Notes: generated by a model from the sequence alone, not told the origin. 64,000 bases of DNA from Gemmataceae bacterium (GCA_025055215.1 JANWYO010000143.1:827-64826); one strand, 5' to 3'. Shown: positions 6,878-60,945, counted from the stretch's first letter. Made by a program: numbers and translations.

Positions 6878-6971
6878 GCCACGCTCCTTCCTTTGAAACC
6901 GGCTGTCGGTCGGCATCAAAGCGGGATTATAGAACTTGGCCAAGCAAAGGGAAACGTCCCGCAAAGGGGAG

Positions 6972-7158
6972 GGGGCTGCCGGATTTCGATGGGGCGAGGG
7001 AGCAGCGGGGGAAAGCGATCGATCGATTCGCCTTCGCGCCAGGATGGGCAAACGCCTGCCCGCACGCAGGGAGCGCGAAACGTTCCGTCGTGGGAAAAGA
7101 TGAATTGGCGGGGAGTGGGGAAAATCCGCCGCCTGGAGCGCGCAATACCGCCCTGAAA
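6972..7158 (-). repeat. Intergenic repeat family, copy 1
   Basis: The reverse complement aligns block by block with 51221..51441: TTCAGGGCGG..GCGCTCC..GGATTTTCCCCACTCCCCGCC..ATTCAT..CCCATCCTGGCGCGAAGGCGAATCGATCGATCGC..CCCCGCTGCTCCCTCGCCCC..GAAATCCGG. Confidence 0.65.
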
Positions 7159-7182
7159 GACAGGCGCACCGCAAGAGAGGCA

Positions 7183-9011: not shown

Positions 9012-9039
9012 ACCATACCGCGCCCACGGCCAAGGTCAA
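9012..9039 (-). promoter_or_regulatory. Sigma70-like promoter candidate TTGACC-N16-TATGGT for the beta-barrel gene
   Basis: Hexamers read on the minus strand, 17 nt downstream of the 3' end of repeat copy 2 and about 150 nt upstream of ATG 8858. Confidence 0.35.
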
Positions 9040-9056
9040 GAGGAAATTCTTGAACG

Positions 9057-9267
9057 CCCCTCTGTTTTTCGGCGGGGCGGCGGTGCAGCCGCGGAGCGCG
9101 GCTCCTCGGTTCGCGCTGGGGCGAGGATGGGAGGCACGTGCCGAGCACGCAGGGAGGTTTCACGATTGATCACACCTCGCGCTGGCTGCGTCCCGAGCGA
9201 ACGCCAGCCAATGAATCGTTGCGGCGGGGAGTGGGGATGTGACTCGGTGGCGCGAGCGGCACCGAAC
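9057..9267 (-). repeat. Intergenic repeat family, copy 2
   Basis: The reverse complement shares CATCCCCACTCCCCGCC, GATTCAT..GGCGTTCGC, the ACGCAG/CTGCGT hairpin, CCTCCCATCCTCGCCCCAGCGCGAACCGA, CGCTCCGCGGCTGCACC and AAAAACAGAGGGG with the other copies. Confidence 0.7.
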
Positions 9268-19473: not shown

Positions 19474-19558
19474 CGGAGGGAGAGGGATTCGAACCCTCGA
19501 TGGCTTTCGCCATGCCGGTTTTCAAGACCGGTGCAATCGGCCGCTCTGCCATCCCTCC
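19474..19558 (-). tRNA. tRNA-Ser (anticodon UGA), class II with long variable arm
   Basis: Reverse complement GGAGGGA..CCGGT-CTTGAAA-ACCGG..CATGGCGAAAGCCATC..GAGGG-TTCGAAT-CCCTC-TCCCTCC-G. 7-bp acceptor stem. CCA is not encoded. Confidence 0.9.
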
Positions 19559-19653
19559 AAGGTGTTGAAGGGCATCGTCAGGACGCTCTTCGCGCCCATT
19601 CTACCCGTTGGTCGAAAGGGAGTCTATTCGGTGTCGCAGGCAGGTGCGACCAT

Positions 19654-19860
19654 GTTTGGAGCGGGATTGACCGCTCTAAGCGGCGCTCTTTCCCCCTTCC
19701 GCCGATCCCTCGGTTCGCGCTGGCGATTGATCGGTTCGGGCTGACGATTGATCGGTTAGGGCTCGCAGTGTGCCCCGCGAGGCTCTCGCGGCGATCGAGC
19801 CAGCGCGGACCGATCAATTTGTCTCCGCCGCTGTCCCCCTGCCCCGGCGAAATCCAGTGG
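19654..19860 (+). repeat. Intergenic repeat family, copy 3 (central hairpin replaced by two tandem 21-mers)
   Basis: GTTTGGAGCGGGATTGACCGCTC..GCTCTTTCCCCC..GATCCCTCGGTTCGCGCTGG at the 5' end. CCAGCGCGGACCGATCAATTTGTCTCCGCCGCTGTCCCCCTGCCCCGGCGAAATCCAGTGG at the 3' end. Confidence 0.6.
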
Positions 19861-20003
19861 TACAAACTTCGGAGGCGGTCAACGGAGTCGGCGGGCCGTC
19901 GACCGCGGGCGTTGTCGCGAAGGGGAAGACGCATCACAATGAGAGGCGGAAGGCGACGCCACGAGTCCCTTTCAGGTCTCAGGTGAGTGCTCGCGGGGTG
20001 GTG

Positions 20004-22178
20004 ATGACGGTCGCAGAGGCGCTGGAACGGGCGCGGGGCCACATCCGGCAGGGGCAATGGGCCGAAGCCGAGAGCTGGGTTCGGGAGGTGATCCGTGTGG
20101 CCCCGGGAGAGGCGGCGGCGTTCCAACTCCTGGCCACCATTGCCCACGGGGTGGGGCGTCCGGAAGCCGCGGAGTTGGCCTTGCGCGAGGCCATCGCCAG
20201 GGCTCCGAGTCAGGCCGAGAACTACGCCTTCTTGGCGAGCCTGCTGGCGGCGCAGGGGCGGCTGGCGGAGGCCGAGGCGGCAGCGCGACGCGCGGTGATG
20301 TTGCAGCCGGGCTGGGCGGTGGCGTATGCCCAGCTGGGCGACATACTTCTCGCGCAGCGGCGCCTGGCCGAGGCGGAAGCCGCCTATCGCCATGCCTTGG
20401 CGTGGGCCCCGGCGATGGCGGAAGCGTGGTGCCAGCTGGGAGCGGTGCTGCGGGCCCAGGGCCGCCTCGGCGAAGCGGAGATGGCCCTCCGCCAGGCCCT
20501 CGCCTTGAACCCCCAATCCGCCAGCGCGGAAAAGCTCCTTGGCCACGTCCTCAAAAGCCAGGGCCGCCTCCTCGAGGCCGAAGCCGCCTATCTCCGCTCC
20601 ATCACCTGGAACCCGACGGACGCCACGACCTTCGGCAACCTCGGCGATGTCTACCACTTGCAAAGCCGCTTCCAGGACGCCGAACGCGCCTATCGCCAAG
20701 CCTTGGCCTTGTCGCCGACCTACGGCGGCGCCGTCAACAATCTGGCCTATGTCCTCGAGGCCCAAGGCCGCCTCGACGAGGCGGAAGCGGCAGCGTGGCG
20801 GGCGTTGGAACTGTTGCCCAACTTGCCGGAGGCGCACCTCAACCTGGGCAATCTGATGCAGACCCGTGGCCGACTGGAGGAAGCCATCCGACATTTCCGC
20901 CGAGCGCGGGAGCTGCGCCCCAGCTACGTCTCGGCCTCGAGCAACATCCTGCGCTGCGAGCAGTATCGACCCGGTATTACGCCGGCCCGCCTGGCCCAGT
21001 TGCACCGCGACTGGGAAGCCCGGCACGTCGCCGAGCTTCGTCAGCTGCCCCGTGACCTTCCTAACGGCCGCGATCCCGACCGCGTGCTACTCCTGGGCCT
21101 GATCTCCAATGATTTCTGTCGTCATCCCGTTGGCTACTTCGTGGCCCCACTTTTTGAACACCACGACCGCGAGCGACTTCAGATCGTCTGCTATGGGGAT
21201 CGGGTTCGGGCTGACGATTGGACAGATCGGCTGCGGGCCGCGGCGGACGAATGGCACGATATCCGACTTCTGGACGACGAGCAGCTAGCCGAGCGCATCC
21301 GCGCCGACCGCATCGACCTCCTCGTCGACCTGGCCGGCCACACTGCCTACCATCGCCTGCTGACGTTCGCTCGCAAGCCGGCGCCGCTCCAGTTCACATG
21401 GATTGGCTACACGGGGACGACCGGCCTGTCGGCCATCGATTATCTGATCGCCGATCGCTTCCATGTTCCGGAAGGGGACGAGGCGCACTACTGTGAGAAG
21501 GTACTGCGACTCCCGGATGGCTACGTGTGCTATCCGCCGCCGGAGGATGCGCCGACGGTGGGGCCGCTGCCCGCCCAAGAGGCGGGCTGCGTGACCTTCG
21601 GCAGCTTTAACTATCCCGCCAAGATCACGCCGCCGGTGATCGCGCTGTGGGCCGACATTCTGCGACGCCTGCCGGGATCACGGCTGCTGCTGAAATTCAA
21701 CGGTTTGGGCGACCCCGGCCTCCGCCGTCGATTGTTGGATCAATTCGCCGCCGCCGGCATCGATCCCGGGCGGCTGGAGCTGCAAGGTTGGTCGCCGCGA
21801 CGACAGCTCCTGGAAACCTACCACAAGGTAGACATCGCCCTCGATCCGTTCCCTTACTCCGGAGGGCTGACGACCTGCGAAGCGTTATGGATGGGAGTGC
21901 CGGTGATCACCTGCCCGGGGGAGACGTTTGCCGGCCGGCACTCGTTCAGTCACCTGTCGAATGCGGGGCTGACCGAGACGATTGCTCGGGATCGGGATGA
22001 GTACGTCCGTCTGGCGGTGGAGCTGGCGCGGGACTGGCCGCGGCTGGCGGCGCTGCGGGCGGGCCTGCGGGAACGGATGCGGAGGTCGCCGTTGTGTGAC
22101 GGGCCGCGGTTTGCCCGCCATGTGGAGGCGGCGTTGCGAAGCGTCTGGCGCCGCTGGTGCCAGGACCACCCGGCATGA
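20004..22178 (+). CDS. TPR-repeat protein fused to a GT41 (SPINDLY / O-GlcNAc-transferase-like) glycosyltransferase domain
   Basis: About 10 TPR units (AEAAYR.AL...P). C-terminal domain with LVDLAGHT, TWIGYTGTTGL.AIDYLIAD, LDPFPYSGGLTTCEALWMGVPV. Start trimmed to ATG 20004. Confidence 0.8.
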   Translation: MTVAEALERARGHIRQGQWAEAESWVREVIRVAPGEAAAFQLLATIAHGVGRPEAAELALREAIARAPSQAENYAFLASLLAAQGRLAEAEAAARRAVMLQPGWAVAYAQLGDILLAQRRLAEAEAAYRHALAWAPAMAEAWCQLGAVLRAQGRLGEAEMALRQALALNPQSASAEKLLGHVLKSQGRLLEAEAAYLRSITWNPTDATTFGNLGDVYHLQSRFQDAERAYRQALALSPTYGGAVNNLAYVLEAQGRLDEAEAAAWRALELLPNLPEAHLNLGNLMQTRGRLEEAIRHFRRARELRPSYVSASSNILRCEQYRPGITPARLAQLHRDWEARHVAELRQLPRDLPNGRDPDRVLLLGLISNDFCRHPVGYFVAPLFEHHDRERLQIVCYGDRVRADDWTDRLRAAADEWHDIRLLDDEQLAERIRADRIDLLVDLAGHTAYHRLLTFARKPAPLQFTWIGYTGTTGLSAIDYLIADRFHVPEGDEAHYCEKVLRLPDGYVCYPPPEDAPTVGPLPAQEAGCVTFGSFNYPAKITPPVIALWADILRRLPGSRLLLKFNGLGDPGLRRRLLDQFAAAGIDPGRLELQGWSPRRQLLETYHKVDIALDPFPYSGGLTTCEALWMGVPVITCPGETFAGRHSFSHLSNAGLTETIARDRDEYVRLAVELARDWPRLAALRAGLRERMRRSPLCDGPRFARHVEAALRSVWRRWCQDHPA

Positions 22179-25100
22179 CGAGGACCAGCAGCAGCGAGGC
22201 AGTGGCAGCCGCACGGGCACACGCGGCAGCGGGGCGTTGGTCCGAGGCCGATGCCTGGGCGCGGGCGGCCCTGGAGGCCGACCCGCGCCATGCCGAAGCT
22301 CACTACCTGCGCGCCTTGGCGGCCCAGGCGGCGGGCGAGCCGGCTACCGCCCTCGCCTTGGCCCGCCAGGCGTTGGCCTGTGACCCAGCCGCGGTCGATG
22401 CCCTGGAATTAACCAGCATGCTGCTGATGCAGCTGGGCCGACCCGCCGAGGCTGAGGCGGATGCCCGCCGGCTCCTGGAAATTCGGCCCCATGCGATCGC
22501 CGGCTGGAACAATCTGGGAAATGCCCTGCGGAGCCAGGGGCGCTATGCCGAGGCGGAATCGGCCTACCGCCAGGCCCTGGCACTCGACCCGACGAATGCC
22601 TCGATTTACAGCAACCTCGGGGCCACGCTGCAATTGATCGGTCGCTGGGCTGACGCCGAGGCCGCCTATCGGCAGGCCCTGAGCTTGCAGCCGACCTCGG
22701 CCGCCGCCTTCAACAACTTGGGCACCATTCTGCGACTGCAAGGCCGCTGGGAAGAGGCGGAAGCGGCTTACCGGCAAGCCTTGCAGCTGCAACCCCATCT
22801 GGCCGAGGCCGCCAACAACCTCGGTAACGTCCTCCACTTGCTCGACCGATCCGTGGAGGCTGAGGCGGCCTATCGACACGCCTTGCAGCTGCGGCCGAAC
22901 TATGTCCGGGCGGCCAGCAACCTCGCCTTGGCGTTGCAATCGCAGGGTCGGCTCTCCGAGGCGGAAGGTGCCGTCCGACACGCCCTGGCCATTGATCCTG
23001 CCGACGCCCAAGCCCACGCCAATCTCGGCCTGATTTTGCAGCTCCAAGGCCGCATCGCGGAAGCCCTGCGACACTTCGAGCAAGCTGCGGCCCTGCGACC
23101 GGCGGCTCCCGAGTTCCTCAGCAGCCTCCTGGCCTGTCTGCACTACGCGCCGGGAATTGCGCCCGAAGACTTGGCCCGCCGCCACCGCGAGTGGGATGAA
23201 CGACACGCCGCCCCGCTTCGAGAGCGGTGGCGGCCATTCGCCCACCTCCGCGACCCTGATGGGCCATTGCACCTTGGCCTGGTTTCCGCCGACCTGGGCC
23301 GGCATCCCGTCGGTTGGTTCTTGGCCGGCATCCTCCCGTACCTGGACCGCTCTGAGGTTTTGGTGTTTGTTTACTCCGATCGGGGGCGGCACGACGACGT
23401 CACGGCCCAGTTGGCCCGAGCCGTCTACGCCTGGCGCGATGTCCGTGGCTGGAGCAACGAGCATCTCGCCGAACGTATCCGCGACGACGGCATCCAACTT
23501 CTCGTCGATCTTGCAGGACACACTTCCAGCCACCGCCTCCTCCTTTTTGCCCTCAAGCCGGCGCCGGTGCAGCTCACCTGGCTCGGCTATACCGGGACAA
23601 CCGGCCTGGGAGCCATCGATTACCTGATCGCCGACCACTTCCACGTCCCCGAAGGCAGCGAGGGGCACTACCGCGAGCGCGTCCTGCGCCTGCCGGATGG
23701 GTACGTCTGCTACCAGGCGCCGGCCGACGCCCCACCCGTCGGCCCGCTTCCGGCGCGGGCACGCGGCTTCGTGACCTTCGGCAGTTGCAACAATCCCGCC
23801 AAGATCGGGCCGGACGTGGTGCGGCGATGGGCCCGCATCCTGCGGCAAGTGCCCGGCTCCCGCCTGCGGCTCCAATACCGCGGCCTCGATGACCCAAGAG
23901 TGGCCGAGCGCTTCCGCCAGCTGTTCGCCGCCGAGGGGATCGATCCCTCCCGCCTGGAATTGTCAGGTTGGGCCCGGCATGAAGAATTGCTCGCGCAGTA
24001 CCATTCCATCGACATCGCCCTGGACCCGTTCCCCTATTCCGGCGGCTTGACGACCTGCGAGGCGCTGTGGATGGGGGTCCCGGTGGTGACGTGCCCGGGC
24101 GCGACCTTCGCCAGCCGCCACGCCTTCAGCCATCTGTCGAACGCGGGCGTGACCGAGACAATAGCCACCGATGAAGCCGACTACGAACGACGGGCCGTGG
24201 AACTGGCCCGTGACTGGGAGCGCTTGGAGCAGCTGCGGCGTGAGCTGCGGCCGCGGATGGCCCAGTCGCCGCTCTGCGACGGGCCCCGCTTTGCCCGCCA
24301 TCTGCACCGGGCCTTGAGGGAGGTTTGGCGGCAGTGGTGCGCCACCTCTCCGGTGCCTGACCCGCAGGTGCTGGCCGAGCCAGCCTCCACCAGCGCCGAG
24401 CATCTGTTCCATTGGGCGTGCGCCCTGCACGCCCAAGGCCGCACGCCGGACGCTGAAGCCGCGCTGCGCGAAGTCTTGCGGCAGCGGCCGACTCTAGCCG
24501 AGGCCGCCAACCAACTCGGCTACATCCTGCTGGAGCAGGGTCGCTGGGCCGAGGCCGAGGGCTGCTTCCGACAAGCGCTGGGGCGGCGGCCGACCCTGGC
24601 GGGGGCGGCGAACAACCTCGGCATGGCGTTGCACCGCCTGGGGCGCTTCGCCGAAAGTGAACAGGCCTGTCGCCAGGCGTTGAGCGTGCACCCCGGATTG
24701 GCCACCGCGTGGTACAACCTGGGCAACGCCCTGTTGTCGCAAGGCCGGCTCCGCGAAGCTGACGAGGCCTACAACCAATGCCTGGAGCGGGACCCGAAGT
24801 TTGCGGCCGCCTGGAACAACCGCGGCCTGGTTCAGGACCTCCTCGGCCGACCCGACGAAGCGGAGCGTGCCTTCCGACACGCCTTGACGTTGGCGCCGCA
24901 ACTGATCGAGGCGCGGACCAACCTCGGCAGTGTCCTCGATGCGCTGGGAAGGCTCTCGGAAGCGGCGGCGGCCTATCGCCAGGTTCTGGCGCTCCGACCC
25001 GATGCGGCCGAGGCCCTGAACAACCTCGGCGACCTGATGCAGCGCGGGGGCCAGATCGAGGAAGCGGGCCGTCTCTTTCGTCGGGCCTGCAACCTCCAAC

Positions 25101-26347
25101 CGTACCATCCGGTGTTTGGCAGCAATGCTCTCCTCAATTTGCAGTACATGCCCGGGGTCACGCCGCGACGTCTGGCCGAAGCACACATCGCCTGGAATGA
25201 GCGACAGGCGGCCCGCTTGCCACGCTACGACTGGACCGGCCGAAGTCGCGCCGACCGGCCGCGGCGCCTGGGCTTTGTCTCAGCCGACTTCCGCCGTCAC
25301 CCGGTTGGCGTCTTTCTCGCCCCGGTGCTGGAGTGCTGGCGGCGCTGGGGGTGCGAGCTGATAGCGTATTCCGACGTCTCACGCCCCGACCTGGTGACCC
25401 GCCGAATCGCTCGCGCCGTCCATGTGTGGCGGGACATCCGCGGTTTGGCAGATGACATGGTGGCCGAACGCATCGCCGCCGACCAGATCGACCTGTTGTT
25501 CGACCTCGCCGGCCACACCGGGGGCCATCGGCTCCTGGTCTTTGCCCGCCGACCCGCGCGCGTGCAGCTGACCTGGATCGGCTATACCGGCACGACGGGC
25601 TTGGCGACCATGGACTACCTGATCGCCGATCGCTACCACGTCCCCCCGGGCACGGAGCGCTGGTACCGGGAACACGTGCTCCGCCTGCCCGATGGCTACG
25701 TGGTCTACGAGCCGCCGGCTGATGCGCCGGACCCGGGGCCGCTTCCGGCCCTTCGGCGGGGGTTCGTGACCTTGGGGAGTTTCAACAACGCCGCCAAGTT
25801 CCATCCCGGCGTGGTGGCCTTGTGGGCTGACGTCCTCCGTCGGCTCCCCAAGTCGCGGCTCGTCTGGCAGCACAACGGTTTCGGCGACCCTGGCGTGCGA
25901 CAACGCTTCCGCCAACAGTTCGAAGCCGCCGGCATCGATCCGGCGCGAGTGGACATGCACGGCTGGGTGCCGTTCACCGAACTTTTGCCCCGCTATCAGG
26001 AGGTCGATCTGGCCCTTGACCCTTTCCCATACTCCGGCGGCTTGACGACCTGCGAGGCACTGTGGATGGGAGTGCCGGTCGTCACCTGTCCCGGCGAGAC
26101 CTTCGCCAGCCGGCATTCGCTCAGCCACTTGAGCAACGCCGGCCTGCCGGAGTTGGTGACGAGCGATCTGGCCGGCTATGCTCGGCTGGTGATGGACCTG
26201 GCGAGTGACTGGCCGCGGTTGGCGGAGTTGCGTCGTAGCTTGCGCGACCGGCTGCGCGCCTCACCGCTGTGCGCCGTGGAACGCTTCAGCCGTCAACTGC
26301 TCGACTTGCTCACGACCACCTGGCAACAAGCAAGCACTCCGCTATAG
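22175..26347 (+). CDS. Double-module protein: TPR-GT41-TPR-GT41
   Basis: Two complete copies of the architecture of the upstream gene in one 1390-aa frame. Its ATG 22175 overlaps the upstream TGA (ATGA). Confidence 0.8.
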   Translation: MTRTSSSEAVAAARAHAAAGRWSEADAWARAALEADPRHAEAHYLRALAAQAAGEPATALALARQALACDPAAVDALELTSMLLMQLGRPAEAEADARRLLEIRPHAIAGWNNLGNALRSQGRYAEAESAYRQALALDPTNASIYSNLGATLQLIGRWADAEAAYRQALSLQPTSAAAFNNLGTILRLQGRWEEAEAAYRQALQLQPHLAEAANNLGNVLHLLDRSVEAEAAYRHALQLRPNYVRAASNLALALQSQGRLSEAEGAVRHALAIDPADAQAHANLGLILQLQGRIAEALRHFEQAAALRPAAPEFLSSLLACLHYAPGIAPEDLARRHREWDERHAAPLRERWRPFAHLRDPDGPLHLGLVSADLGRHPVGWFLAGILPYLDRSEVLVFVYSDRGRHDDVTAQLARAVYAWRDVRGWSNEHLAERIRDDGIQLLVDLAGHTSSHRLLLFALKPAPVQLTWLGYTGTTGLGAIDYLIADHFHVPEGSEGHYRERVLRLPDGYVCYQAPADAPPVGPLPARARGFVTFGSCNNPAKIGPDVVRRWARILRQVPGSRLRLQYRGLDDPRVAERFRQLFAAEGIDPSRLELSGWARHEELLAQYHSIDIALDPFPYSGGLTTCEALWMGVPVVTCPGATFASRHAFSHLSNAGVTETIATDEADYERRAVELARDWERLEQLRRELRPRMAQSPLCDGPRFARHLHRALREVWRQWCATSPVPDPQVLAEPASTSAEHLFHWACALHAQGRTPDAEAALREVLRQRPTLAEAANQLGYILLEQGRWAEAEGCFRQALGRRPTLAGAANNLGMALHRLGRFAESEQACRQALSVHPGLATAWYNLGNALLSQGRLREADEAYNQCLERDPKFAAAWNNRGLVQDLLGRPDEAERAFRHALTLAPQLIEARTNLGSVLDALGRLSEAAAAYRQVLALRPDAAEALNNLGDLMQRGGQIEEAGRLFRRACNLQPYHPVFGSNALLNLQYMPGVTPRRLAEAHIAWNERQAARLPRYDWTGRSRADRPRRLGFVSADFRRHPVGVFLAPVLECWRRWGCELIAYSDVSRPDLVTRRIARAVHVWRDIRGLADDMVAERIAADQIDLLFDLAGHTGGHRLLVFARRPARVQLTWIGYTGTTGLATMDYLIADRYHVPPGTERWYREHVLRLPDGYVVYEPPADAPDPGPLPALRRGFVTLGSFNNAAKFHPGVVALWADVLRRLPKSRLVWQHNGFGDPGVRQRFRQQFEAAGIDPARVDMHGWVPFTELLPRYQEVDLALDPFPYSGGLTTCEALWMGVPVVTCPGETFASRHSLSHLSNAGLPELVTSDLAGYARLVMDLASDWPRLAELRRSLRDRLRASPLCAVERFSRQLLDLLTTTWQQASTPL

Positions 26348-39569: not shown

Positions 39570-40164
39570 CGTCTCTCCTCCATGCCCGTGGCGGGTCGTC
39601 CCCATCCGGCCGGAACAACGGCCCGGAGCGCTCCACGGCTAGCCAGGCAAGGACCACCAGCCAGCGGACCATCATCAACCCGACGAAGGTGATGACGATC
39701 CACGTCAGGGCCTGTTCCATCGACCGAATGAACAGCGGCCGCGCCCGCCAGGCGCTGGCCAGCCCCCACGGAACCAGGGCCAAGCCGAACACAGCCGTCA
39801 GCGTGCCCACGGCATTCGCTTGGAGCGAATACCAGACGCTGATCGGTCGGCCGTGCACCAGGCCGTCCATCAACAGGGCGAAGCTGGTGGTCATGCCGCA
39901 CGACGGGCACGGCAGACCGGCCAACGCCCGGAAGGAACACGGCGGCAGCCCCAGCTGTTGGTGCGTCCCCAGCCGCAGTGGCTGACCCTGATCGTCGTAA
40001 GGGTTTAACCGCGCCGCGACGATGAACACGGCCACCAGTCCCAGGGCCATGCCTACCAGCGCCCCGCGGACCCAGACGGTCAGCACGGGCAGGACCTCAG
40101 GTGCTTTCGCCGTTGGCTCGGACGATTGCCAGGGAGCGGGCACGATAGCGTTCTTCCTGTCCAT
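39286..40164 (-). CDS. DUF2752-family membrane protein with a long out-of-family C-terminal tail
   Basis: Signature LPPCSFRALAGLPCPSCGMTTSF plus 4 TM helices. The frame stays open to 39286, so it overlaps the lipoprotein gene by 284 nt. Start is ATG 40164 or GTG 40194. Confidence 0.6.
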   Translation of the reverse strand: MDRKNAIVPAPWQSSEPTAKAPEVLPVLTVWVRGALVGMALGLVAVFIVAARLNPYDDQGQPLRLGTHQQLGLPPCSFRALAGLPCPSCGMTTSFALLMDGLVHGRPISVWYSLQANAVGTLTAVFGLALVPWGLASAWRARPLFIRSMEQALTWIVITFVGLMMVRWLVVLAWLAVERSGPLFRPDGDDPPRAWRRDDGTAPHTPAARWQLGPGGGLDPRLQSDRCALLPHVRSGAEDRPALPVGSARQESRSAGDGARQLGARDPARIPPCGARAGQSSGATAGERLPAK

Positions 40165-40199
40165 GTCAAGCGCGACTTGAGTGGCCGGGTACACCCATT

Positions 40200-40450
40200 G
40201 TTCAAGGCGGGGTTGAGCGCTCCGGGCCGCGGTTTTTCCCCAAGCCCCCGCCGCGCCGATTCCTCGTCTCGCACACGCTGGGCACGCAGCGAACGCGAAA
40301 CGATCGATCTGCCTGCGGGCCCAGCACGCGCCTCCCGTCCTTGCGCCAGCGCGAACCGATGGATCGGTTGTCAGGTCCGTCGCGACGCGACCCGGCGCGG
40401 CCCGAGCGCGAACCGATCAATGGATGGTTGGACCGTCCCTGAGTTTAGGG
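40200..40450 (+). repeat. Intergenic repeat family, copy 4 (internal duplication of the GCGCGAACCGAT module)
   Basis: GTTCAAGGCGGGGTTGAGCGCTCCGGGCCGCGGTTTTTCCCCAAGCCCCCGCC, CGCAG/CTGCG hairpin, GCCCAGCACGCGCCTCCCGTCCTTGCGCCAGCGCGAACCGATGGATCGGTT, then a second CGAGCGCGAACCGATCAATGG. Confidence 0.65.
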
Positions 40451-51099: not shown

Positions 51100-51220
51100 C
51101 GTTCCACTCCTGGCTAGGACAAGATCCGTGGTTCCCCCTCACTTTAGTAGACGACCCGGGGTTTCTCCAGTTTTTTACCCCCTGGAGGTGCCGTCGAGGG
51201 ATGCACCTAGTTGGCGCGGC

Positions 51221-51441
51221 GTTCAGTGGTTCAGACGGCGGTTTTTCCCCACCTCACTACTCATTCCTCGTAGCGCGCCCATGATTCATCCGTTGGCGTT
51301 CGCGCGGCATGTAGCGAGCGCCAAGCGATCGAATCGTGAACGCTAGCTACATGCCCAGCACCCGGCTCCCATCCTCGCGCGAGCGCGAACCGATCGGTCG
51401 CTCTCCGCCGCTGCACCCTCGCCCTGCCCAAATCCAGAGGG
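51221..51441 (+). repeat. Intergenic repeat family, copy 5 (reference copy)
   Basis: GTTCAGTGG..GGCGGTTTTTCCCCACC..ATGATTCATCCGTTGGCGTTCGCGCG, GCATGTAGC/GCTACATGC hairpin, CCCAGCACCCGGCTCCCATCCTCGCGCGAGCGCGAACCGATCGGTCGCTCTCCGCCGCTGCACCCTCGCCCTGCCCAAATCCAGAGGG. Confidence 0.7.
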
Positions 51442-51527
51442 ACGCCTCTGCCGGGCTTTGCCTTGTGGCAGCGAAGCCCCTCTTCTATACTGGCAAGCGA
51501 ATGTCGAACCGAAGGACGTCAAGAGCG

Positions 51528-53193: not shown

Positions 53194-53625
53194 GGTCCGC
53201 AAGTCGGCCGGACGGTCGCTGCCCGTGGGCGCGTCGGTGTCATGCCGGCTGGCGTCCCGGGGAGAGGAAAGTCCGGGCTCCACAGGACACGGTGGTGGGT
53301 AACGCCCACCGTCCGCGAGGACCGGGATAGTGCAACAGAAAGCATACCGCCCGAAGTCGGGTCGGTGAGGCCCGATTTTGGGTAAGGGTGAAAAGGTGGG
53401 GGGACTTCGGTCCCTTAATGTAAGAGCCCACCAGCAGCCGGGTGACCGGCTGGCTCGGCAAACCCCACCGGGAGCAAGGCCAAGTAAGGGAGGAGGGCTG
53501 GTCCGGCCCGCTGTGAACTCCCGGGTAGGCCGCTGGACCACACGGGCAACCGTGCGGCTAGATAAATGACCGTCCCCAGGACCGATCCTGGGACAGAACC
53601 CGGCTTACAGGCCGACTCGCGGACC
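53194..53625 (+). ncRNA. rnpB: RNase P RNA, bacterial type A
   Basis: GGAGAGGAAAGTCCGGGCTCCACAGGACA (P4/J3-4), AGTGCAACAGAAAGCATACCGCC, GGTAAGGGTGAAAAGGTG, ACAGAACCCGGCTTACAGGCCGAC. The 5' GGTCCGCAAGTCGGCC pairs with the 3' GGCCGACTCGCGGACC. Followed by GTTTTTG. Confidence 0.95.
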
Positions 53626-53660: not shown

Positions 53661-55985
53661 TTGGCCGCGTCCGCATCCCACCCCGCTTGGGGGGCAACCA
53701 CCGTCTGCCGACTGCGGCCGTACCTGCTGCTGGCGGTCTTCGCCAGCCTGTTCTTTTTCGACCTGCTGATCCGGCCTGGCGGCACCCTTTATTCGGACAC
53801 GTCCGACCTGCTGGCGCTGCATTTGCCGTTCAAGCGCTTCCTGGTTTCCGCCTACCGGGAAACAGGGGAACTGCCGCTCTGGTGCCCGCACAGCTACGCC
53901 GGCTTGCCCGTGGTCCATGACATCCAGACGGCGACATTTTACCCGCCGCACCTGGTCCTTTACCTGCTGTCGGAGGACTGGGTGGGGCCGGCGATGAGCT
54001 GGCTGGTTTGGGCCCATCTGGTGGTCGCAGGATGGGCGATGCACGCCTATGCCCGATCCCAGGGGCTGGGCGGCGCCGGGGCCTTCGTGGCAGCGGCGGG
54101 CTTCATGTTCGCTGGCCGCTGGCTGATGCACCTCTTGCTCGGAGGGCATTACATCCTGGCGCCGCTGGCTTGGCTCCCGTTGGTTCTCTTGGGGTTGGAG
54201 AGAGCCCAGGAGGCGGGCTCGCTGCCGCGGTGGCTCGTGCCAGCGACGCTCGCCGGAACTGCTTATGCTCTGGTGATCCTAGGGACGCACCCGCAGCTGA
54301 CTTTCTACGCAGGATTGTTTGCCGGCGTGTGGACCGTGGTGCCTGCGTTGGAGCGAGCGGGGTGGTACGGCGGCCCGAGATCGGGCCGCCGCACCGCCTG
54401 GGCCCTGGCGCGGTGGTTCATCACCGGAACGTGGGCCCTGGCTATTGCCGTCGGCTTGTCGGCCATTCAACTAATGCCCGCGCTGGAGGCGGCCCCGCTC
54501 TCCAGCCGGTCCTTGGGCGTGGCCACTTGGGACGACATCCTCCTGGCCGGCCCGCGCGTCCTCTTGTACCTGGTTGGCCCTGCCTTGACGGTAGAGCCGG
54601 TCAACCTCCAGTGGGAGGACCGCGGCGGCCTGGCCGTCCTGTGGTTGACCGCCGCTCTCCTCGCGCCGCTCCTCGACGGGCCGCGGGTCCGAGCTCAGGC
54701 TTGGGTCACACTCCTTTTCGTCCTTTTTGCCCTGGGCGGGGCCATCCTCGTGCACTGGTTGCCGGGGTTTCGGCTCTTCCGTCAACCGGCCCGCATGATG
54801 ATCGTCGTGGGCCTCCCCGTAGCCCTGCTGGCCGGCCGGACCGTGCAGGCCGTCGGAAACGGTGTGACGACCGGTCAACTTTCCCTCTGCCGCCATGGGC
54901 TGGCGCGGGTAGTAATTGCTGCCGGCATTCTCAACGGCGGCTTCGCCCTTCGGCTGTTTCTCCAGGGCGCTCCCATCCGCTGGCACCCATATTGGGCCAG
55001 CCTGGTGTTGACGATCCCTGCGGCTTATGTCCTTTTCTCGCCCCGTGCCGAGGGCTGGCGGCGCCGGGCGTTGCCGATGGTGCTGCTTGTCGACCTGCTG
55101 GCCTTGACTTGGCCGGCGGTGCAAGTTTATCCGGAAGCCGAAGTCCTGGCACCGACCGAGATCGTGTCGTTCCTCCAACGCCTGCCGCCGGCGCAGCGTG
55201 GCCGAGTCCTCGACTTCCATCCCCTCGGCCACGACTACAACTCGCCGCTGGGGACCGGCGCGCACCTCGCCCTCCGCTACCGCCTGGAACCAGTCCGAGG
55301 GTACAACAGCTTCGACATCCTGGCCTACAAGGAATACTTGGCGGCGATCGCCGGGCACACCGGCCCCCTTCGGCCGTTTGAAAGCGACTTGACCTTCCCG
55401 GATGTCGGCAACGTTCCCGTGGTCCGCAAACCGCTCCTCGATCAGCTTGGCGTGCGTTACCTGGTGCAGCCTGAGTCTGAGCCGGCCCCGTCGGATTGTC
55501 GGAAGGTTTTCGAGGAGAGGTCGCCCGCGGCTTACGACTTCAGCCGTGGCGGTCGACAGCCCCTTCCCCCTTACGTCGTGTACGAAAATCTGACGGCCTT
55601 GCCTCGGGCCTTTGTGGTGGCCGACCTCGGCCCGGCGGCGGGAGGGCCGGCGGCCCTCCCGCTGCTTCCCCGCCACGCCGTTATCCGCCGCGATCGGCCC
55701 AACGAAGTCGTCATCGACGTCCCAAGGGGGCAACCGGGATGGCTCGTCCTCAGTGATCCGTGGTATCCGGGCTGGACCGTCTCCGTGAACGGCGAGCCGC
55801 GCTCCCTGCTGCGGGTCTGTCAAGCCTTCCGCGCCGTGGCGCTTTCATCGGAGGCGCAGGAAGTCGTCTTCCGCTTCGCTCCCCAATCGCTGCGCCTTGG
55901 GCGCTTGATCAGCCAAGGGACCGGGGCAGCGGTGATGCTCTTGCTGATTGGGGGACTGGTCTTTCGGCGCCGGGAAACATCATGA
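53661..55985 (+). CDS. YfhO-family membrane protein (GT-C type glycosyltransferase-like)
   Basis: Many TM helices. N-terminal region LYSDTSDLLALHLPFKRFLVSAYRETGELPLWCPHSYAGLPVVHD. The only in-frame start is TTG 53661 (no ATG for about 110 codons), so the start is uncertain. Confidence 0.7.
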   Translation: MAASASHPAWGATTVCRLRPYLLLAVFASLFFFDLLIRPGGTLYSDTSDLLALHLPFKRFLVSAYRETGELPLWCPHSYAGLPVVHDIQTATFYPPHLVLYLLSEDWVGPAMSWLVWAHLVVAGWAMHAYARSQGLGGAGAFVAAAGFMFAGRWLMHLLLGGHYILAPLAWLPLVLLGLERAQEAGSLPRWLVPATLAGTAYALVILGTHPQLTFYAGLFAGVWTVVPALERAGWYGGPRSGRRTAWALARWFITGTWALAIAVGLSAIQLMPALEAAPLSSRSLGVATWDDILLAGPRVLLYLVGPALTVEPVNLQWEDRGGLAVLWLTAALLAPLLDGPRVRAQAWVTLLFVLFALGGAILVHWLPGFRLFRQPARMMIVVGLPVALLAGRTVQAVGNGVTTGQLSLCRHGLARVVIAAGILNGGFALRLFLQGAPIRWHPYWASLVLTIPAAYVLFSPRAEGWRRRALPMVLLVDLLALTWPAVQVYPEAEVLAPTEIVSFLQRLPPAQRGRVLDFHPLGHDYNSPLGTGAHLALRYRLEPVRGYNSFDILAYKEYLAAIAGHTGPLRPFESDLTFPDVGNVPVVRKPLLDQLGVRYLVQPESEPAPSDCRKVFEERSPAAYDFSRGGRQPLPPYVVYENLTALPRAFVVADLGPAAGGPAALPLLPRHAVIRRDRPNEVVIDVPRGQPGWLVLSDPWYPGWTVSVNGEPRSLLRVCQAFRAVALSSEAQEVVFRFAPQSLRLGRLISQGTGAAVMLLLIGGLVFRRRETS

Positions 55986-57190
55986 CACATTTGCCACGGC
56001 TCGGCCGTTTCCTCGGTTTGCTCGGGGCCGTCACCCTGGCCGGCTATGCCTTGTTCCGCGCGGGACCGCACTTCGCCGCTCCGGAAGCCTGGCCGCCAGA
56101 AGATTTCATCGCCTTCTGGTCCGCGGGTCGCATCTTCCTCGCTGGGGGCAATCCCTACTCGTGGGCGGAGTTGGGACCGGTCCAGTGGCAGGCCGGCTGG
56201 CCTGTCAGTAAAGGCCCCCTGGACCTCTACAACCCTCCCTGGGGATTGACCTTCTTTCTCCCCTTCTGCGTCTTCAACTTTGCGTCGGGTCGGCTCCTTT
56301 GGTTGCTCTTCCAACTCGGCACCCTTTTTTTGTGTGCCGAAGGATTGCGGCGGCTGTATGCGTCGCGGAACGGAACCTCGACCTGGCCGATCCTCATCTG
56401 CTTTGCCTACTATCCAACCCTCCAGCTCTTGGCGGTTAGCCAGACGACCTTCCTCGTGTTGGCAGGCATCGTCGGCTTCCTGGTGTGCCACCGCCACGGT
56501 CACGAGTTTCTCGCCGGAGGATGGCTAGCGATTACCGGTGTCAAACCCCACCTTGCCGTCCTGCCCATGGCCGCGGTGACCGGCTGGGCCGTCGTGTCGC
56601 GACGGTGGCGCATCCTCTGGGGATTGTGGGCCGTCGGCGCGCTGCTGCTCGCGTTGCCGGCCCTGTGGAATCCCGCGGCCTACGCGCACTACCTCGAAGC
56701 GATGACGACCCGGCCGCCACGCACCGTGCCGGCCGTGCCCGCGGCCTGGCTCCGGCAGCTGATCGATCCCGACGCCTATTGGCTGCAACTGGTGCCGACG
56801 TTCCTGGGGTTGGTCTGGGTGACGATCGATGCCATTCGCCAGCCAAGCTTGTCGAGCTGGGACGAGAAAATGTCTGGGCTGCTGTTTGTCACGGTGCTGA
56901 CCGCGGCCTACGGTTGGGGGTACGACCTGGTGGTGCTGCTGCCGCCGCTGGTGGAGGCGACGGCTTCCTTGCCGCGATGGCCGCGGCCCGCGGCGGCCTT
57001 GGCCGCCGCGGGCTATCTCGCCGGCAACGCCGCCGCCGTGGTCATGAACGTGCAGCACGTCGACGAGCGCTACTTCGTCTGGCTGGCTCCGGCGCTGCTC
57101 GGCGGCTGGATCATGGGCCGCTGGCTCGCACGGCCCCAAGAGGCGGCCCCGCCGGCCCGCCGGCCAACTGCGGAAGGACGTAAGCCTTGA
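55982..57190 (+). CDS. GT87 / DUF2029-family membrane glycosyltransferase
   Basis: ATGA overlap with the yfhO-like stop. DFIAFWSAGRIFLAGGNPY and LYNPPWGLTFFLPF motifs. About 10 TM helices. Confidence 0.7.
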   Translation: MTHLPRLGRFLGLLGAVTLAGYALFRAGPHFAAPEAWPPEDFIAFWSAGRIFLAGGNPYSWAELGPVQWQAGWPVSKGPLDLYNPPWGLTFFLPFCVFNFASGRLLWLLFQLGTLFLCAEGLRRLYASRNGTSTWPILICFAYYPTLQLLAVSQTTFLVLAGIVGFLVCHRHGHEFLAGGWLAITGVKPHLAVLPMAAVTGWAVVSRRWRILWGLWAVGALLLALPALWNPAAYAHYLEAMTTRPPRTVPAVPAAWLRQLIDPDAYWLQLVPTFLGLVWVTIDAIRQPSLSSWDEKMSGLLFVTVLTAAYGWGYDLVVLLPPLVEATASLPRWPRPAAALAAAGYLAGNAAAVVMNVQHVDERYFVWLAPALLGGWIMGRWLARPQEAAPPARRPTAEGRKP

Positions 57191-57935
57191 GGAAAGCGAC
57201 ACCGTGGCAATCGTTGTGCCGGCCGCAATTGCCGGTCCAGGCAACGCTCGGATGCCAGGGGTGCTGGCGGAGCTTGGTGTACAGCCAGGCGTCGTGGGGT
57301 GTTTGCGGTACGGGACAGAACCCGCGCGAGCCGGCGGGCGGGCCGCGCCGGCGGTCAGCCGTGCCGACCAGGGCCGCGCTCAGCCGAACTCCCAGATCGT
57401 ATTCGCTGTAATAAACGTCGATACCGTCGCGGGCCGCCCGCAGGGCCGGTCGCAAGTCGTACCCCGCCGACACGGAGGGTGCCAGCAGGACGATTCGACT
57501 GACCGAATCGGGCGGCAACGCCTCCGCGGCGGCCAACACAACGGTGCTGCCGGCGCTGTGGCCGACCAACACCACATCCTGGCCCGGACAACACTGCCGA
57601 TGGCAGGCCACCCGGTTGGCCAGACGATGCCCTTCGTGGCGGGCATGGGCATAGTCGATCTGGTCAATCAAGATGCGCCGATAACCGTGGGACCACTCGA
57701 CGGTGACGACACTCCACGGCAGACGCAGGTCGGCCACGGCCTGACGCAGGGCCTGGGAAGTCGATTGGTAGTTGCCAGCGCCGTCTGCCACGAAAAAGAC
57801 GCCTTGATCGCGGGGCGAAGGAGCGACGGCAGTCGCCGCCTTGGGGCGCAGTCCGGCACAGCCGATTAGTAATGGCAGAAAAGCCAAAAGGATCGAGAAC
57901 CGGGGCACGGCTTCCAGGCCTCGTGCTCGGAGCAT
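57111..57935 (-). CDS. Lipoprotein alpha/beta-hydrolase (GxSxG = GHSAG)
   Basis: AAGAGGG SD. Lipobox LLIGC. Nucleophile elbow VLVGHSAGS. 80-nt convergent overlap with the GT87 gene. Confidence 0.65.
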   Translation of the reverse strand: MLRARGLEAVPRFSILLAFLPLLIGCAGLRPKAATAVAPSPRDQGVFFVADGAGNYQSTSQALRQAVADLRLPWSVVTVEWSHGYRRILIDQIDYAHARHEGHRLANRVACHRQCCPGQDVVLVGHSAGSTVVLAAAEALPPDSVSRIVLLAPSVSAGYDLRPALRAARDGIDVYYSEYDLGVRLSAALVGTADRRRGPPAGSRGFCPVPQTPHDAWLYTKLRQHPWHPSVAWTGNCGRHNDCHGVAFLKAYVLPQLAGGPAGPPLGAVRASGP

Positions 57936-58036: not shown

Positions 58037-58065
58037 GCTATATCTTGCCTCGCCAGCGGTTTCAA
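58037..58065 (-). promoter_or_regulatory. Sigma70-like promoter TTGAAA-N17-TATAGC for the hydrolase gene
   Basis: Read on the minus strand, 18 nt downstream of the 3' end of repeat copy 6 and about 95 nt upstream of ATG 57935. Confidence 0.4.
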
Positions 58066-58083
58066 GCGGACGTGTCGGGGAGA

Positions 58084-58302
58084 GTCCCTTAGGATCTCGG
58101 CGGGACGAAGGAGAGCAACCAAGGGCGATCGGTCCGCGCTCGCGCGACGATGGGAGATGCGTGCCCGACACGCAGATACCGTTCACCTTTCATCGATTCG
58201 CGGTCGCTGCGTCCCGGGCGAAGGCGAGAAACGGTGAATCGTGAGCGCGGAACGAGGACGTGGCGGGGAAAAACCGTGGCGCGCTCAACCCCGCCCCTGA
58301 AC
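58084..58302 (-). repeat. Intergenic repeat family, copy 6
   Basis: Reverse complement GTTCAGGGGCGGGGTTGAGCGCGCCACGGTTTTTCCCCGCC..CGATTCACCG..ACGCAG/CTGCGT hairpin..CATCTCCCATCGTCGCGCGAGCGCGGACCGATCGCC..GAGATCCTAAGGGAC. Confidence 0.7.
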
Positions 58303-58340
58303 GACAGATGTATCGTGTCGGGCGAAGGCCCGGCCGGCGA

Positions 58341-58388
58341 GCGCAAACAAAGACCCGGGCGTCGGCCAAAATTGCGCCGACGCCCGGG
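58341..58388 (-). terminator. Intrinsic terminator of clpC
   Basis: Minus strand CCCGGGCGTCGGC-GCAATTTTG-GCCGACGCCCGGG followed by TCTTTGTTTG, about 45 nt after the clpC stop. Confidence 0.6.
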
Positions 58389-58431
58389 CCTGACTCAGCC
58401 CTGCGGGCTTAGCATCCCACGGTGCGGTGAT

Positions 58432-60945
<2,514 letters not shown>

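What the first reader, a model, noticed from the sequence alone, without database searches (positions are those of the whole stretch)
58037..58302. The repeat is co-oriented with, and ends 17-21 nt before, a sigma70-like -35/-10 pair of the downstream gene
In four copies the 3' block (AAATCCAGAGGG-like) is followed at a near-constant distance by promoter-like hexamers. Copy 58084-58302: TTGAAA-N17-TATAGC (58037-58065). Copy 9057-9267: TTGACC-N16-TATGGT (9012-9039). Copy 51221-51441: TTGTGG-N17-TATACT (51463-51491). Copy 6972-7158: a perfect TATAAT at 6926-6931 with a weak -35. In copy 19654-19860, TTGTCG-N17-CACAAT lies 51 nt away. The downstream genes are functionally unrelated: an alpha/beta-hydrolase lipoprotein, a beta-barrel OMP, larE, a membrane protein and TPR-GT41. 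In copies 1 and 6 the 5' end starts shortly after the upstream gene's terminator hairpin. This looks like a portable upstream-regulatory or promoter cassette rather than a random repeat.
Basis: partly seen in the sequence, partly recalled or inferred. Interest (0 to 1): 0.62.

Follow-up and report, generated by a model that had tools for sequence, protein, structure and literature searches.

The report
Promoter-homing miniature transposon, not a promoter cassette
The repeat is an old, non-coding miniature transposon (about 250 copies in this Gemmataceae genome) that landed, in either orientation, about 15 bases upstream of genes' own promoters; this is the known landing habit of some Mutator-like bacterial transposons, so it does not carry or act as a promoter.

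Summary
The repeat is a 215-250 nt element with sharp borders and 26-nt imperfect terminal inverted repeats (GGGTGCACC...GGGACACCC). It has a roughly 9-bp target-site duplication and 253 loci in the 4.58 Mb genome, nearly all intergenic.

Where an element end faces a gene start, a sigma70-like -35/-10 pair starts 14-17 nt beyond that end (peak 15-16). This occurs at 82 of 232 such ends and at 3 of 93 ends that face a gene's 3' end.

- There is no co-orientation. Tandem regions hold 55 co-oriented and 54 anti-oriented copies, and 60 promoters abut the 3' end against 56 at the 5' end.
- The promoter lies outside the duplicated target, so it is host DNA.
- Sigma70-like sites inside the elements are rare.

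Distance, duplication length, repeat termini and orientation-independence match the published insertion signature of promoter-targeting prokaryotic Mutator-like transposases (TnGBS/ISLre2, ISKra4 group; PMC3942029).

No transposase or parent IS was found in this genome or in about 650 related genomes. The copies are only about 80% identical to their consensus. I read it as a fossil orphan MITE family. It is a new member of a known kind and of moderate interest.

The parts
58080..58315 (-). MITE copy named in the finding (236 nt; 5' end near 58315, 3' end at 58080)
   Evidence: nhmmer/hmmalign to the family model, positions 2-256; sequence read
58037..58065 (-). sigma70-like promoter of the downstream gene: -35 TTGAAA (58065-58060), 17-nt spacer, -10 TATAGC (58042-58037); starts 14 nt beyond the element's 3' end
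   Evidence: PWM score 11.2; not called by the strict consensus scanner because the -10 lacks the final T
58073..58079 (.). direct repeat TGTCGGG abutting the 3' end; remnant of the target-site duplication
   Evidence: read; family-wide TSD statistics
58316..58322 (.). second copy of TGTCGGG abutting the 5' end; remnant of the target-site duplication
   Evidence: read
58342..58391 (-). terminator-like hairpin (58351-58391) plus T-tract of the upstream gene 58432-59025; the element sits between this terminator and the next promoter
   Evidence: fold -66.9 kcal/mol, z = -4.61
57111..57935 (-). downstream gene, alpha/beta-hydrolase fold
   Evidence: Pfam PF00561/PF12697
6969..7171 (-). MITE copy; its 3' end faces the promoter
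6926..6954 (-). TTTCCC-N17-TATAAT, 14 nt beyond the 3' end of copy 6969-7171
   Evidence: score 13.6
9052..9237 (-). MITE copy, 5'-truncated (model positions 50-253)
9012..9039 (-). TTGACC-N16-TATGGT, 12 nt beyond the 3' end of copy 9052-9237
   Evidence: score 12.9
19645..19867 (+). MITE copy in a divergent intergenic region; nearest promoter-like site on the 3' side is 44 nt away (19912-19940), the outlier
40187..40368 (+). MITE copy, 3'-truncated and anti-oriented to both neighbouring genes; its 5' end faces the promoter
40142..40169 (-). TTGACA-N16-TATCGT reading away from the 5' end of copy 40187-40368, offset 17; shows orientation-independence inside the window
   Evidence: score 15.1, the best of the window
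51203..51447 (+). MITE copy, the best match to the family model
51463..51491 (+). TTGTGG-N17-TATACT, 15 nt beyond the 3' end of copy 51203-51447; upstream of a PP-loop ATPase (LarE-like) gene

Best explanation
The repeat is a non-autonomous miniature inverted-repeat transposable element (MITE). It was moved in trans by a DDE transposase that integrates at a fixed distance upstream of the -35 box of housekeeping (sigma70/sigmaA-type) promoters. The transposase was most likely a prokaryotic Mutator-like enzyme of the ISKra4 group (p-MULT 4), a family that is abundant in other Gemmataceae.

Integration duplicated about 9 bp of target. It placed one transposon end, either one, 15-16 bp from the -35 hexamer and left the host core promoter intact. 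In tandem gene arrays the element therefore sits between the upstream gene's terminator and the downstream gene's promoter.

The promoter next to each copy is the gene's own, pre-existing promoter. The element does not supply it. The partner transposase is no longer in the genome, and the roughly 250 copies have since decayed to about 80% identity with their consensus.

Shown here: element anatomy, target-site duplication, copy number, intergenic location, lack of orientation bias, the fixed offset to promoter-like hexamers at either end, and the absence of a transposase in the genome.

Inferred: that the hexamers are active promoters, that the offset reflects target choice at integration, and which transposase family did it.
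For: - **Family size.** The family has 253 loci, 158 of them with both ends. Only 3 are genic.
- **Anatomy.** Borders are sharp. The 26-nt TIRs are GGGTGCACCTATCGTTTGGGGCGGGG and, as reverse complement of the 3' end, GGGTGTCCCTCTGGATTTCGGCGGGG (19/26 identical). The termini are 5'-G...C-3'.
- **TSD.** 23 elements match at >= 8 of 9 positions, against 1.5 expected from shuffled pairings. 40 match at 7 of 9, against 11 expected. The best register corresponds to 8-9 bp.
- **Offset.** Promoter offsets peak at 15-16 nt at both ends, with 82/232 gene-start-facing ends against 3/93 gene-end-facing ends. The signal is already visible in unselected flank composition (TTG at +15, an AT bump at +39 to +43).
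- **One end only.** Of 126 elements with both ends evaluable, 70 have a promoter at one end, 3 at both and 53 at neither. This is as expected for insertion beside one target promoter.
- **No orientation bias.** Tandem regions hold 55 co-oriented and 54 anti-oriented copies; 60 promoters are at the 3' end and 56 at the 5' end.
- **Promoters look native.** They lie a median of 61 nt before the called start codons. This matches the genome-wide peak of PWM hits at 60-80 nt upstream of starts.
- **Literature.** TnGBS/ISLre2 insert 15-17 bp upstream of the -35. ISKra4-group IS do so in both orientations. Their IRs are 18-39 bp with a terminal C, their DRs 8-9 bp, and p-MULT 4 occurs in Planctomycetes (PMC3942029).
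- **Relatives.** ISKra4-family transposases (NF033572) occur in 79 of 121 genomes of the same bacterial family. Their IS have 9-bp TSDs and TIRs that start GGGTGY, like the MITE.
Against: - No p-MULT transposase is present in the MAG. NF033529, NF033572 and PF00872 gave 0 hits, and tblastn with ISKra4-type transposases from relatives' loci gave none that held up.
- No parent IS with matching TIRs was found in 252 family genomes, 400 class genomes or the JGI metagenome contigs. Assignment to the transposase family therefore rests on the insertion signature and an 11-nt TIR-tip similarity.
- The few ISKra4-family IS copies sampled from relatives (16 copies, 6 IS types) did not themselves show promoters at offset 15-16.
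- The MITE's two TIRs are only 73% alike. The paper ties orientation-free insertion to 83-100% IR complementarity.
- About 42% of elements (53 of 126) have no strong promoter at either end.
- No TSS data and no empty-site data could be obtained.
- Gene calls come from a home-made caller.
Confidence: 0.72

Rival explanations
1. One reading: the repeat is a portable promoter or upstream-regulatory cassette. It would be co-oriented with the downstream gene and would bring or control its promoter.
For: The element ends at a fixed distance from -35/-10 pairs of unrelated genes. Per-column conservation is overdispersed (sd 0.106 against a binomial 0.033). An internal 21-nt core, GCGAGCGCGAACCGATCAATC, is somewhat better kept (0.86) than the TIRs (0.78-0.79).
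Against: There is no orientation bias (55 vs 54; 60 vs 56). The promoters lie outside the TSD, in unconserved host DNA. Internal promoter-like sites are rare. An internal site would sit at very different distances from the promoter in the two orientations. Core conservation does not differ between promoter-adjacent copies and other copies. RNAalifold finds no consensus structure on either strand.
Confidence: 0.06
2. Promoter homing is real but was done by a transposase outside the Mutator-like superfamily, by convergent target choice in another DDE family that makes 8-9 bp duplications.
For: No p-MULT gene and no parent IS was found anywhere. The sampled Gemmataceae ISKra4-family IS show no promoter offset. 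Unverified notes from this scan report promoter-homing MITEs assigned to IS66 and ISAs1 parents in other genomes. Those notes are leads only.
Against: The offset (15-16), the TSD (about 9 bp), the TIR length with a terminal C, and insertion in both orientations all match the published p-MULT 3/4 signature. The TIR tip GGGTGY matches NF033572-family IS in sister genera. That family is present in 79 of 121 related genomes.
Confidence: 0.14
3. Insertion was random across intergenic DNA, and selection kept only the copies that did not disturb the promoter. The position just upstream of the core promoter would then be a survivorship effect.
For: Elements are almost never genic (3 of 253). They are depleted in convergent regions (11) and enriched in promoter-bearing regions.
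Against: Survivorship predicts a lower bound with a broad upstream tail. The data show a 3-4 nt peak: 75 of the 140 best sites fall at offsets 14-17, with few at 18-60. Long divergent regions (median 320 nt) leave plenty of neutral space that is not used.
Confidence: 0.04
4. After promoter-targeted insertion, some copies were co-opted by the host, for example as an insulator or terminator against read-through from the upstream gene, or as a binding platform. This would add to the best explanation rather than replace it.
For: The copies have been kept for a long time, at about 20% divergence. Column conservation is uneven, with a better-kept internal palindromic core. In tandem arrays the elements sit between terminators and promoters.
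Against: No consensus structure or covariation was detected. Core conservation is the same in copies beside a promoter and in other copies. Subfamily structure (64 long and 81 short forms) can explain the overdispersion.
Confidence: 0.1

Closest known systems
ISKra4 group of the ISKra4 family (p-MULT 4 Mutator-like DDE transposases; Guerillot et al. 2014, PMC3942029)
   Same: Insertion just upstream of sigmaA-type promoters, with promoters found beside either end. 8-9 bp direct repeats. IRs in the 18-39 bp range with a terminal C. The family is reported in Planctomycetes, and here it is found in 79 of 121 Gemmataceae genomes. The TIR tip GGGTGY is shared with those IS.
   Different: This element is about 230 nt and has no transposase. 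No cognate full-length IS was found. Its two IRs are 73% alike, against the 83-100% reported for the orientation-free IS. It reaches about 250 copies in one 4.6 Mb genome.
TnGBS ICEs and ISLre2-family IS (p-MULT 3; Brochet et al. 2009 and Guerillot et al. 2013, as cited in PMC3942029)
   Same: Integration 15-17 bp (peak 16) upstream of the -35 of sigmaA promoters. The core promoter stays intact. Similar TSD length.
   Different: Those elements insert in one orientation, with IR-right next to the promoter. They are almost confined to Firmicutes and are autonomous IS or 1.1-52 kb ICEs. The ISLre2 model NF033529 has no hit in this genome.
Correia/NEMIS elements of Neisseria and other MITEs that carry or create outward promoters (from my own knowledge, not checked here)
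   Same: Short, TIR-bounded, high-copy intergenic elements often found just upstream of genes.
   Different: In those elements the promoter hexamers lie in the element ends or are formed at the junction. Here they start about 15 nt outside the element and beyond the TSD, and internal promoter-like sites are rare.

Membership tests
MITE (non-autonomous DDE-transposon derivative) | Terminal inverted repeats | tested here: met
   26-nt consensus TIRs, 19/26 identical, with sharp conservation borders
MITE (non-autonomous DDE-transposon derivative) | Target-site duplication flanking the copies | tested here: met
   >= 8 of 9 matches in 23 elements against 1.5 expected; 7 of 9 in 40 against 11 expected; TGTCGGG flanks the named copy
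MITE (non-autonomous DDE-transposon derivative) | Small, many dispersed copies, no transposase gene inside | tested here: met
   215-250 nt; 253 loci across the contigs; too short to encode a transposase
MITE (non-autonomous DDE-transposon derivative) | A cognate autonomous IS sharing the TIRs | tested here: not met
   None in the MAG. None in 252 family genomes, 400 class genomes or JGI metagenome contigs. The only outside hits were a solo 38-nt TIR homolog in G150 and a probable chance hit inside a long ORF in G554. The MAG is fragmented, so absence is not proof.
Promoter-targeting p-MULT elements (TnGBS/ISLre2, ISKra4 group) | Insertion 15-17 bp upstream of the -35 of sigmaA-type promoters | tested here: met
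   Offset peak at 15 (34 cases), 16 (20), 14 (12) and 17 (9); 82/232 against 3/93; compared with PMC3942029
Promoter-targeting p-MULT elements (TnGBS/ISLre2, ISKra4 group) | Direct repeats of 8-9 bp | tested here: met
   Best TSD register is 8-9 bp; PMC3942029
Promoter-targeting p-MULT elements (TnGBS/ISLre2, ISKra4 group) | IRs of 18-39 bp with a conserved terminal cytosine | tested here: met
   26-nt IRs; ends GGGTG...CACCC; PMC3942029
Promoter-targeting p-MULT elements (TnGBS/ISLre2, ISKra4 group) | Mobility depends on a Mutator-like DDE transposase carrying the promoter-targeting signature motif | tested here: inconclusive
   No NF033529, NF033572 or PF00872 hit and no tblastn hit that held up in the genome. 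The family is common in sister genera. A MITE needs the enzyme only in trans, and only in the past.
Promoter-targeting p-MULT elements (TnGBS/ISLre2, ISKra4 group) | ISKra4 group: promoters on both sides, linked to near-perfect IR complementarity (83-100%) | tested here: inconclusive
   Both orientations are used equally (60 vs 56; 55 vs 54), but the consensus IRs are only 73% alike
Promoter-targeting p-MULT elements (TnGBS/ISLre2, ISKra4 group) | TIR sequence related to known family members | tested here: inconclusive
   The tip GGGTGY(R)CCT is shared with NF033572-family IS of Gemmataceae, e.g. GGGTGTGCCTAC, GGGTGCAGTCGC and GGGTGTGCATCT. This covers only about 6-11 nt. The whole-element HMM finds nothing in 20 such IS loci.
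Promoter-carrying MITEs (Correia-like) | Promoter hexamers inside the element or formed at the junction | tested here: not met
   Hexamers start about 15 nt beyond the end and beyond the TSD. Internal sites with score >= 8 occur in 8 (forward) and 6 (reverse) of 128 elements.
Structured non-coding RNA or riboswitch family | Match to a curated RNA family, or a conserved covarying structure | tested here: not met
   No Rfam hit on any window copy. RNAalifold gives no consensus pairs on either strand for the short form (81 sequences) or the long form (64 sequences).

The most novel reading that the evidence does not exclude
The family may be more than a fossil. It could be the first high-copy MITE shown to home to sigma70 promoters in Planctomycetota. 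It could have been moved by a lineage of promoter-targeting transposase that is not yet described, since no known p-MULT parent was found and its two ends are 27% different yet are used equally. Alternatively, host selection may have kept it as an orientation-independent upstream module (insulator or binding platform) at more than 100 promoters. In any of these cases it gives a built-in map of about 116 native promoters in a phylum whose promoter architecture is barely characterised.
Probability: 0.15. Interest if true: 0.65.

Novelty: new member of a known kind. Interest (0 to 1): 0.4.

Why it matters
It explains a striking pattern, the same 230-nt repeat parked at a fixed distance from unrelated promoters, by a known but little-noticed mechanism: transposases that home to promoters.

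The finding also has practical uses:
- It extends that mechanism to a non-autonomous, very high-copy element in a GC-rich Gemmataceae genome.
- It warns annotators not to read such repeats as regulatory leaders or promoter cassettes.
- The roughly 116 element-tagged -35/-10 pairs form a curated set of likely native sigma70-type promoters (TTGACN-N17-TANNNT) for a planctomycete.
- Those sites are also a natural data set for asking what these transposases recognise at promoters.

Tried and rejected
- **Rfam.** A scan of the window found only RNase P RNA and one tRNA.
- **Related copies elsewhere.** BLAST of the element against 40 relatives gave nothing credible.
- **Transposase in the genome.** ISLre2, ISKra4 and IS256 (Transposase_mut) models gave 0 hits in the own genome. 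In tblastn with proteins taken from relatives' ISKra4 loci, one weak hit on C175 turned out to be a low-complexity alternative frame. One strong hit on C265 probably came from a query ORF next to the IS rather than from the transposase, which I inferred and did not check.
- **Parent IS.** The MITE HMM found nothing in 20 ISKra4 loci of relatives. A TIR pattern search with up to 3 mismatches covered 252 family genomes and 400 class genomes. It found only a solo 38-nt homolog beside a truncated tyrosine-recombinase gene in G150, with no TSD, and a probable chance hit inside a long ORF in G554. Two exact-pattern scans of the metagenome contigs gave 0 hits.
- **Positive control.** I sampled ISKra4-family IS copies from five Gemmataceae genomes. 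They have 9-bp TSDs and GGGTG tips but no promoter at offset 15-16 in the 16 copies with clean borders, so the control was not positive.
- **Empty site.** The look-up of encoding contigs had no record of the downstream protein. The LarE-like gene's neighbour is not syntenic in relatives.
- **RNA structure.** RNAalifold gave no consensus on either strand.
- **Element carries promoters at both ends.** Rejected, because only 3 of 126 elements have promoters at both ends.
- **Literature.** Searches found no description of ISKra4- or ISLre2-derived MITEs or of planctomycete MITEs of this kind.

Full report
**Observation.** The coordinates hold a real repeat. Six copies in the window align. A profile built from the best copies finds 253 loci in the 4.58 Mb, 65.6% GC genome in which the window lies, and 158 of them have both ends. 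The closest relatives of a conserved 1036-aa protein are Gemmataceae/Gemmatales MAGs and Zavarzinella. No window copy matches an Rfam family.

- Copy 58080-58315 (-): TTGAAA-N17-TATAGC at 58065-58037.
- Copy 9052-9237 (-): TTGACC-N16-TATGGT at 9039-9012.
- Copy 51203-51447 (+): TTGTGG-N17-TATACT at 51463-51491.
- Copy 6969-7171 (-): a perfect TATAAT at 6926-6931 with a weak -35.
- Copy 19645-19867 (+): an outlier site 44 nt away.

The downstream genes are unrelated: an alpha/beta hydrolase, an OMP-like protein, a PP-loop ATPase, DUF7847, TPR-GT41 and DUF2752. A strong hairpin with a T-tract lies between the upstream gene and the 5' end of the named copy. The session's strict consensus scanner does not call TTGAAA-N17-TATAGC a promoter, because the -10 lacks the final T. 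The named site is therefore a weak example of the pattern.

**Anatomy.** I aligned 153 full copies, each with 80-nt flanks, to the profile. Conservation starts and stops abruptly, and the flanks drop to the random level of about 33%.

The ends are imperfect 26-nt inverted repeats. The 5' end is GGGTGCACCTATCGTTTGGGGCGGGG. The reverse complement of the 3' end is GGGTGTCCCTCTGGATTTCGGCGGGG. They are identical at 19 of 26 positions.

Flanking 9-mers match each other far more often than shuffled pairings do. Twenty-three elements match at >= 8 of 9 positions, against 1.5 expected. Forty match at 7 of 9, against 11 expected. The best register corresponds to 8-9 bp. The named copy is flanked by TGTCGGG at 58073-58079 and at 58316-58322.

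There are two internal forms, 64 long and 81 short. Median pairwise identity is 67%, the closest pair is 82% identical, and copies are about 80% identical to the consensus. This fits one old burst followed by independent decay. The element is a MITE.

I called genes with a codon-usage model of my own (3404 genes, 86% coding). Only 3 of the 253 loci are genic. The rest divide as follows:

| Context | Loci |
|---|---|
| Divergent intergenic regions | 109 |
| Convergent intergenic regions | 11 |
| Tandem regions, co-oriented with the genes | 55 |
| Tandem regions, anti-oriented | 54 |
| At contig edges | 21 |

Co-orientation is therefore not real.

The distance claim is real and more general than stated. 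I scanned 90 nt outward from every well-defined end with a sigma70 position weight matrix, correcting the 5' border by one base. The best site beside ends that face a gene start peaks at offsets 14/15/16/17, with 12/34/20/9 cases. The result is the same for the 3' end and the 5' end.

In the window 13-17 nt, 82 of 232 gene-start-facing ends have a site scoring >= 8. Only 3 of 93 ends that face a gene's 3' end do (Fisher p = 6e-11). Control windows at 3-7, 25-29 and 35-39 nt hold 1-6 sites in each end class. The background rate in the 200 nt upstream of all genes is 0.0025 per position, which gives a binomial p of 2e-93. The signal is also visible without any PWM selection, as TTG at +15 and an AT bump at about +39 to +43 in the raw flank composition.

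Sixty promoter-adjacent ends are 3' ends and 56 are 5' ends. Its 5' end is 17 nt from TTGACA-N16-TATCGT (40169-40142, minus strand), the best promoter match of the set.

**Who owns the promoter.** The hexamers lie beyond the target-site duplication, in sequence that is not conserved between copies. Of the 126 elements with both ends evaluable, 70 have a promoter at one end, 3 at both and 53 at neither. Promoter-like sites inside the element are rare, 8 forward and 6 reverse among 128 elements. The adjacent promoters sit a median of 61 nt before the called start codons. PWM hits genome-wide also peak at that distance.

The promoters are therefore the genes' own, and the element landed next to them. 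A pure survivorship model, with random insertion and selection against promoter disruption, predicts a lower bound with a broad tail. It does not predict a 3-4 nt peak.

**Mechanism and comparison with the literature.** I had already reached 'targeted insertion upstream of promoters'. That paper reports the following:
- TnGBS and ISLre2 (p-MULT 3) insert 15-17 bp upstream of the -35 of sigmaA promoters, with a peak at 16, in one orientation.
- Thirteen IS of the ISKra4 group (p-MULT 4) do the same, but with promoters on either side.
- IRs are 18-39 bp with a terminal C, and direct repeats are 8-9 bp.
- p-MULT 4 occurs in Planctomycetes.

The element here meets each DNA-level criterion: offset 15-16, a TSD of about 9 bp, 26-nt IRs ending in C, and use of both orientations.

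The ISKra4-family model NF033572 hits 79 of 121 genomes of the same bacterial family. Those IS are 1.5-2.0 kb and make 9-bp duplications. Their IRs start GGGTGY (GGGTGTGCCTAC, GGGTGCAGTCGC, GGGTGTGCATCT and others), as the MITE's do.

**What remains open.** The transposase-level criterion cannot be met. The MAG has no ISLre2, ISKra4 or IS256-type transposase. No parent IS with these TIRs turned up in 252 family genomes, 400 class genomes or the metagenome contigs.

The intended positive control also failed. The 16 cleanly bounded ISKra4-family IS copies sampled from relatives show no promoter at offset 15-16. That is compatible with the paper, where only one lineage of p-MULT 4 targets promoters. 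It also means the targeting lineage was not identified in this clade.

The two IRs of the MITE are 73% alike, below the 83-100% the paper links to orientation-free insertion. Unverified notes from this scan report promoter-homing MITEs with other parent families in other genomes. I therefore keep a 14% rival that the enzyme was not Mutator-like.

TSS data, population reads and empty sites could not be obtained.

**A regulatory role after insertion.** Column conservation is overdispersed. An internal 21-nt core is kept at 0.86, against 0.78-0.79 for the IRs. The difference is small, is the same in promoter-adjacent copies and other copies, and can come from subfamily structure. RNAalifold finds no consensus structure on either strand. 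I rate co-option at about 10%.

**Verdict.** The link to promoters is real, but the element is a promoter-homing orphan MITE and not a promoter or regulatory cassette. It is a new, non-autonomous, high-copy planctomycete member of a known kind of mobile element, and I found no published description of such MITEs. Interest is moderate.

Noticed in passing
window 40142-40194: The longest ORF for the DUF2752 gene starts at GTG 40194, upstream of its own predicted promoter (-35 at 40169-40164, -10 at 40147-40142) and almost touching the MITE end at 40187. The real start codon is probably downstream of about 40134.
   Followed up: partly
genome-wide (model columns about 66-85 and 102-144 of the family alignment): The MITE family has two internal architectures, 64 long and 81 short copies among 153 full ones. 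They differ by a duplicated arm of the central palindrome (GATTCATCGTTTCGCGC / GCGAGCGCGAAACGATGAATC).
   Followed up: partly
L043 (G150:C4:686500-692500), TIR homolog at G150:C4:691345-691370: The only credible homolog of the MITE outside this genome is a solo 38-nt copy of the 5' inverted repeat (31/38 identical). It lies next to a truncated tyrosine-recombinase gene in another Gemmataceae genome. It has no partner end and no target duplication.
   Followed up: yes
L099-L137 (Gemmataceae genomes G075, G105, G128, G019, G135, G115): ISKra4-family IS are multi-copy in many Gemmataceae (79 of 121 genomes have the transposase). Those sampled have clean 9-bp target duplications and GGGTG-type ends. 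The 16 copies examined are not next to promoter-like sites at offset 15-16.
   Followed up: partly
window 53200-53623 (+) and 19474-19558 (-): Bacterial RNase P RNA class A (263 bits) and one tRNA. The tRNA lies just upstream of MITE copy 19645-19867.
   Followed up: no
window 57111-57190: The convergent ORFs 55982-57190 (+) and 57111-57935 (-) overlap by 80 nt at their 3' ends. Because of this, my gene caller dropped the alpha/beta-hydrolase gene. One of the two stop positions or extents may be misjudged.
   Followed up: no
window 20253-26305: There are three tandem paralogous TPR plus GT41 units (300-nt repeat families at 69-76% identity, 34-residue TPR periodicity). A separate 126-nt periodic repeat lies in the gene at 9996-10561.
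   Followed up: no
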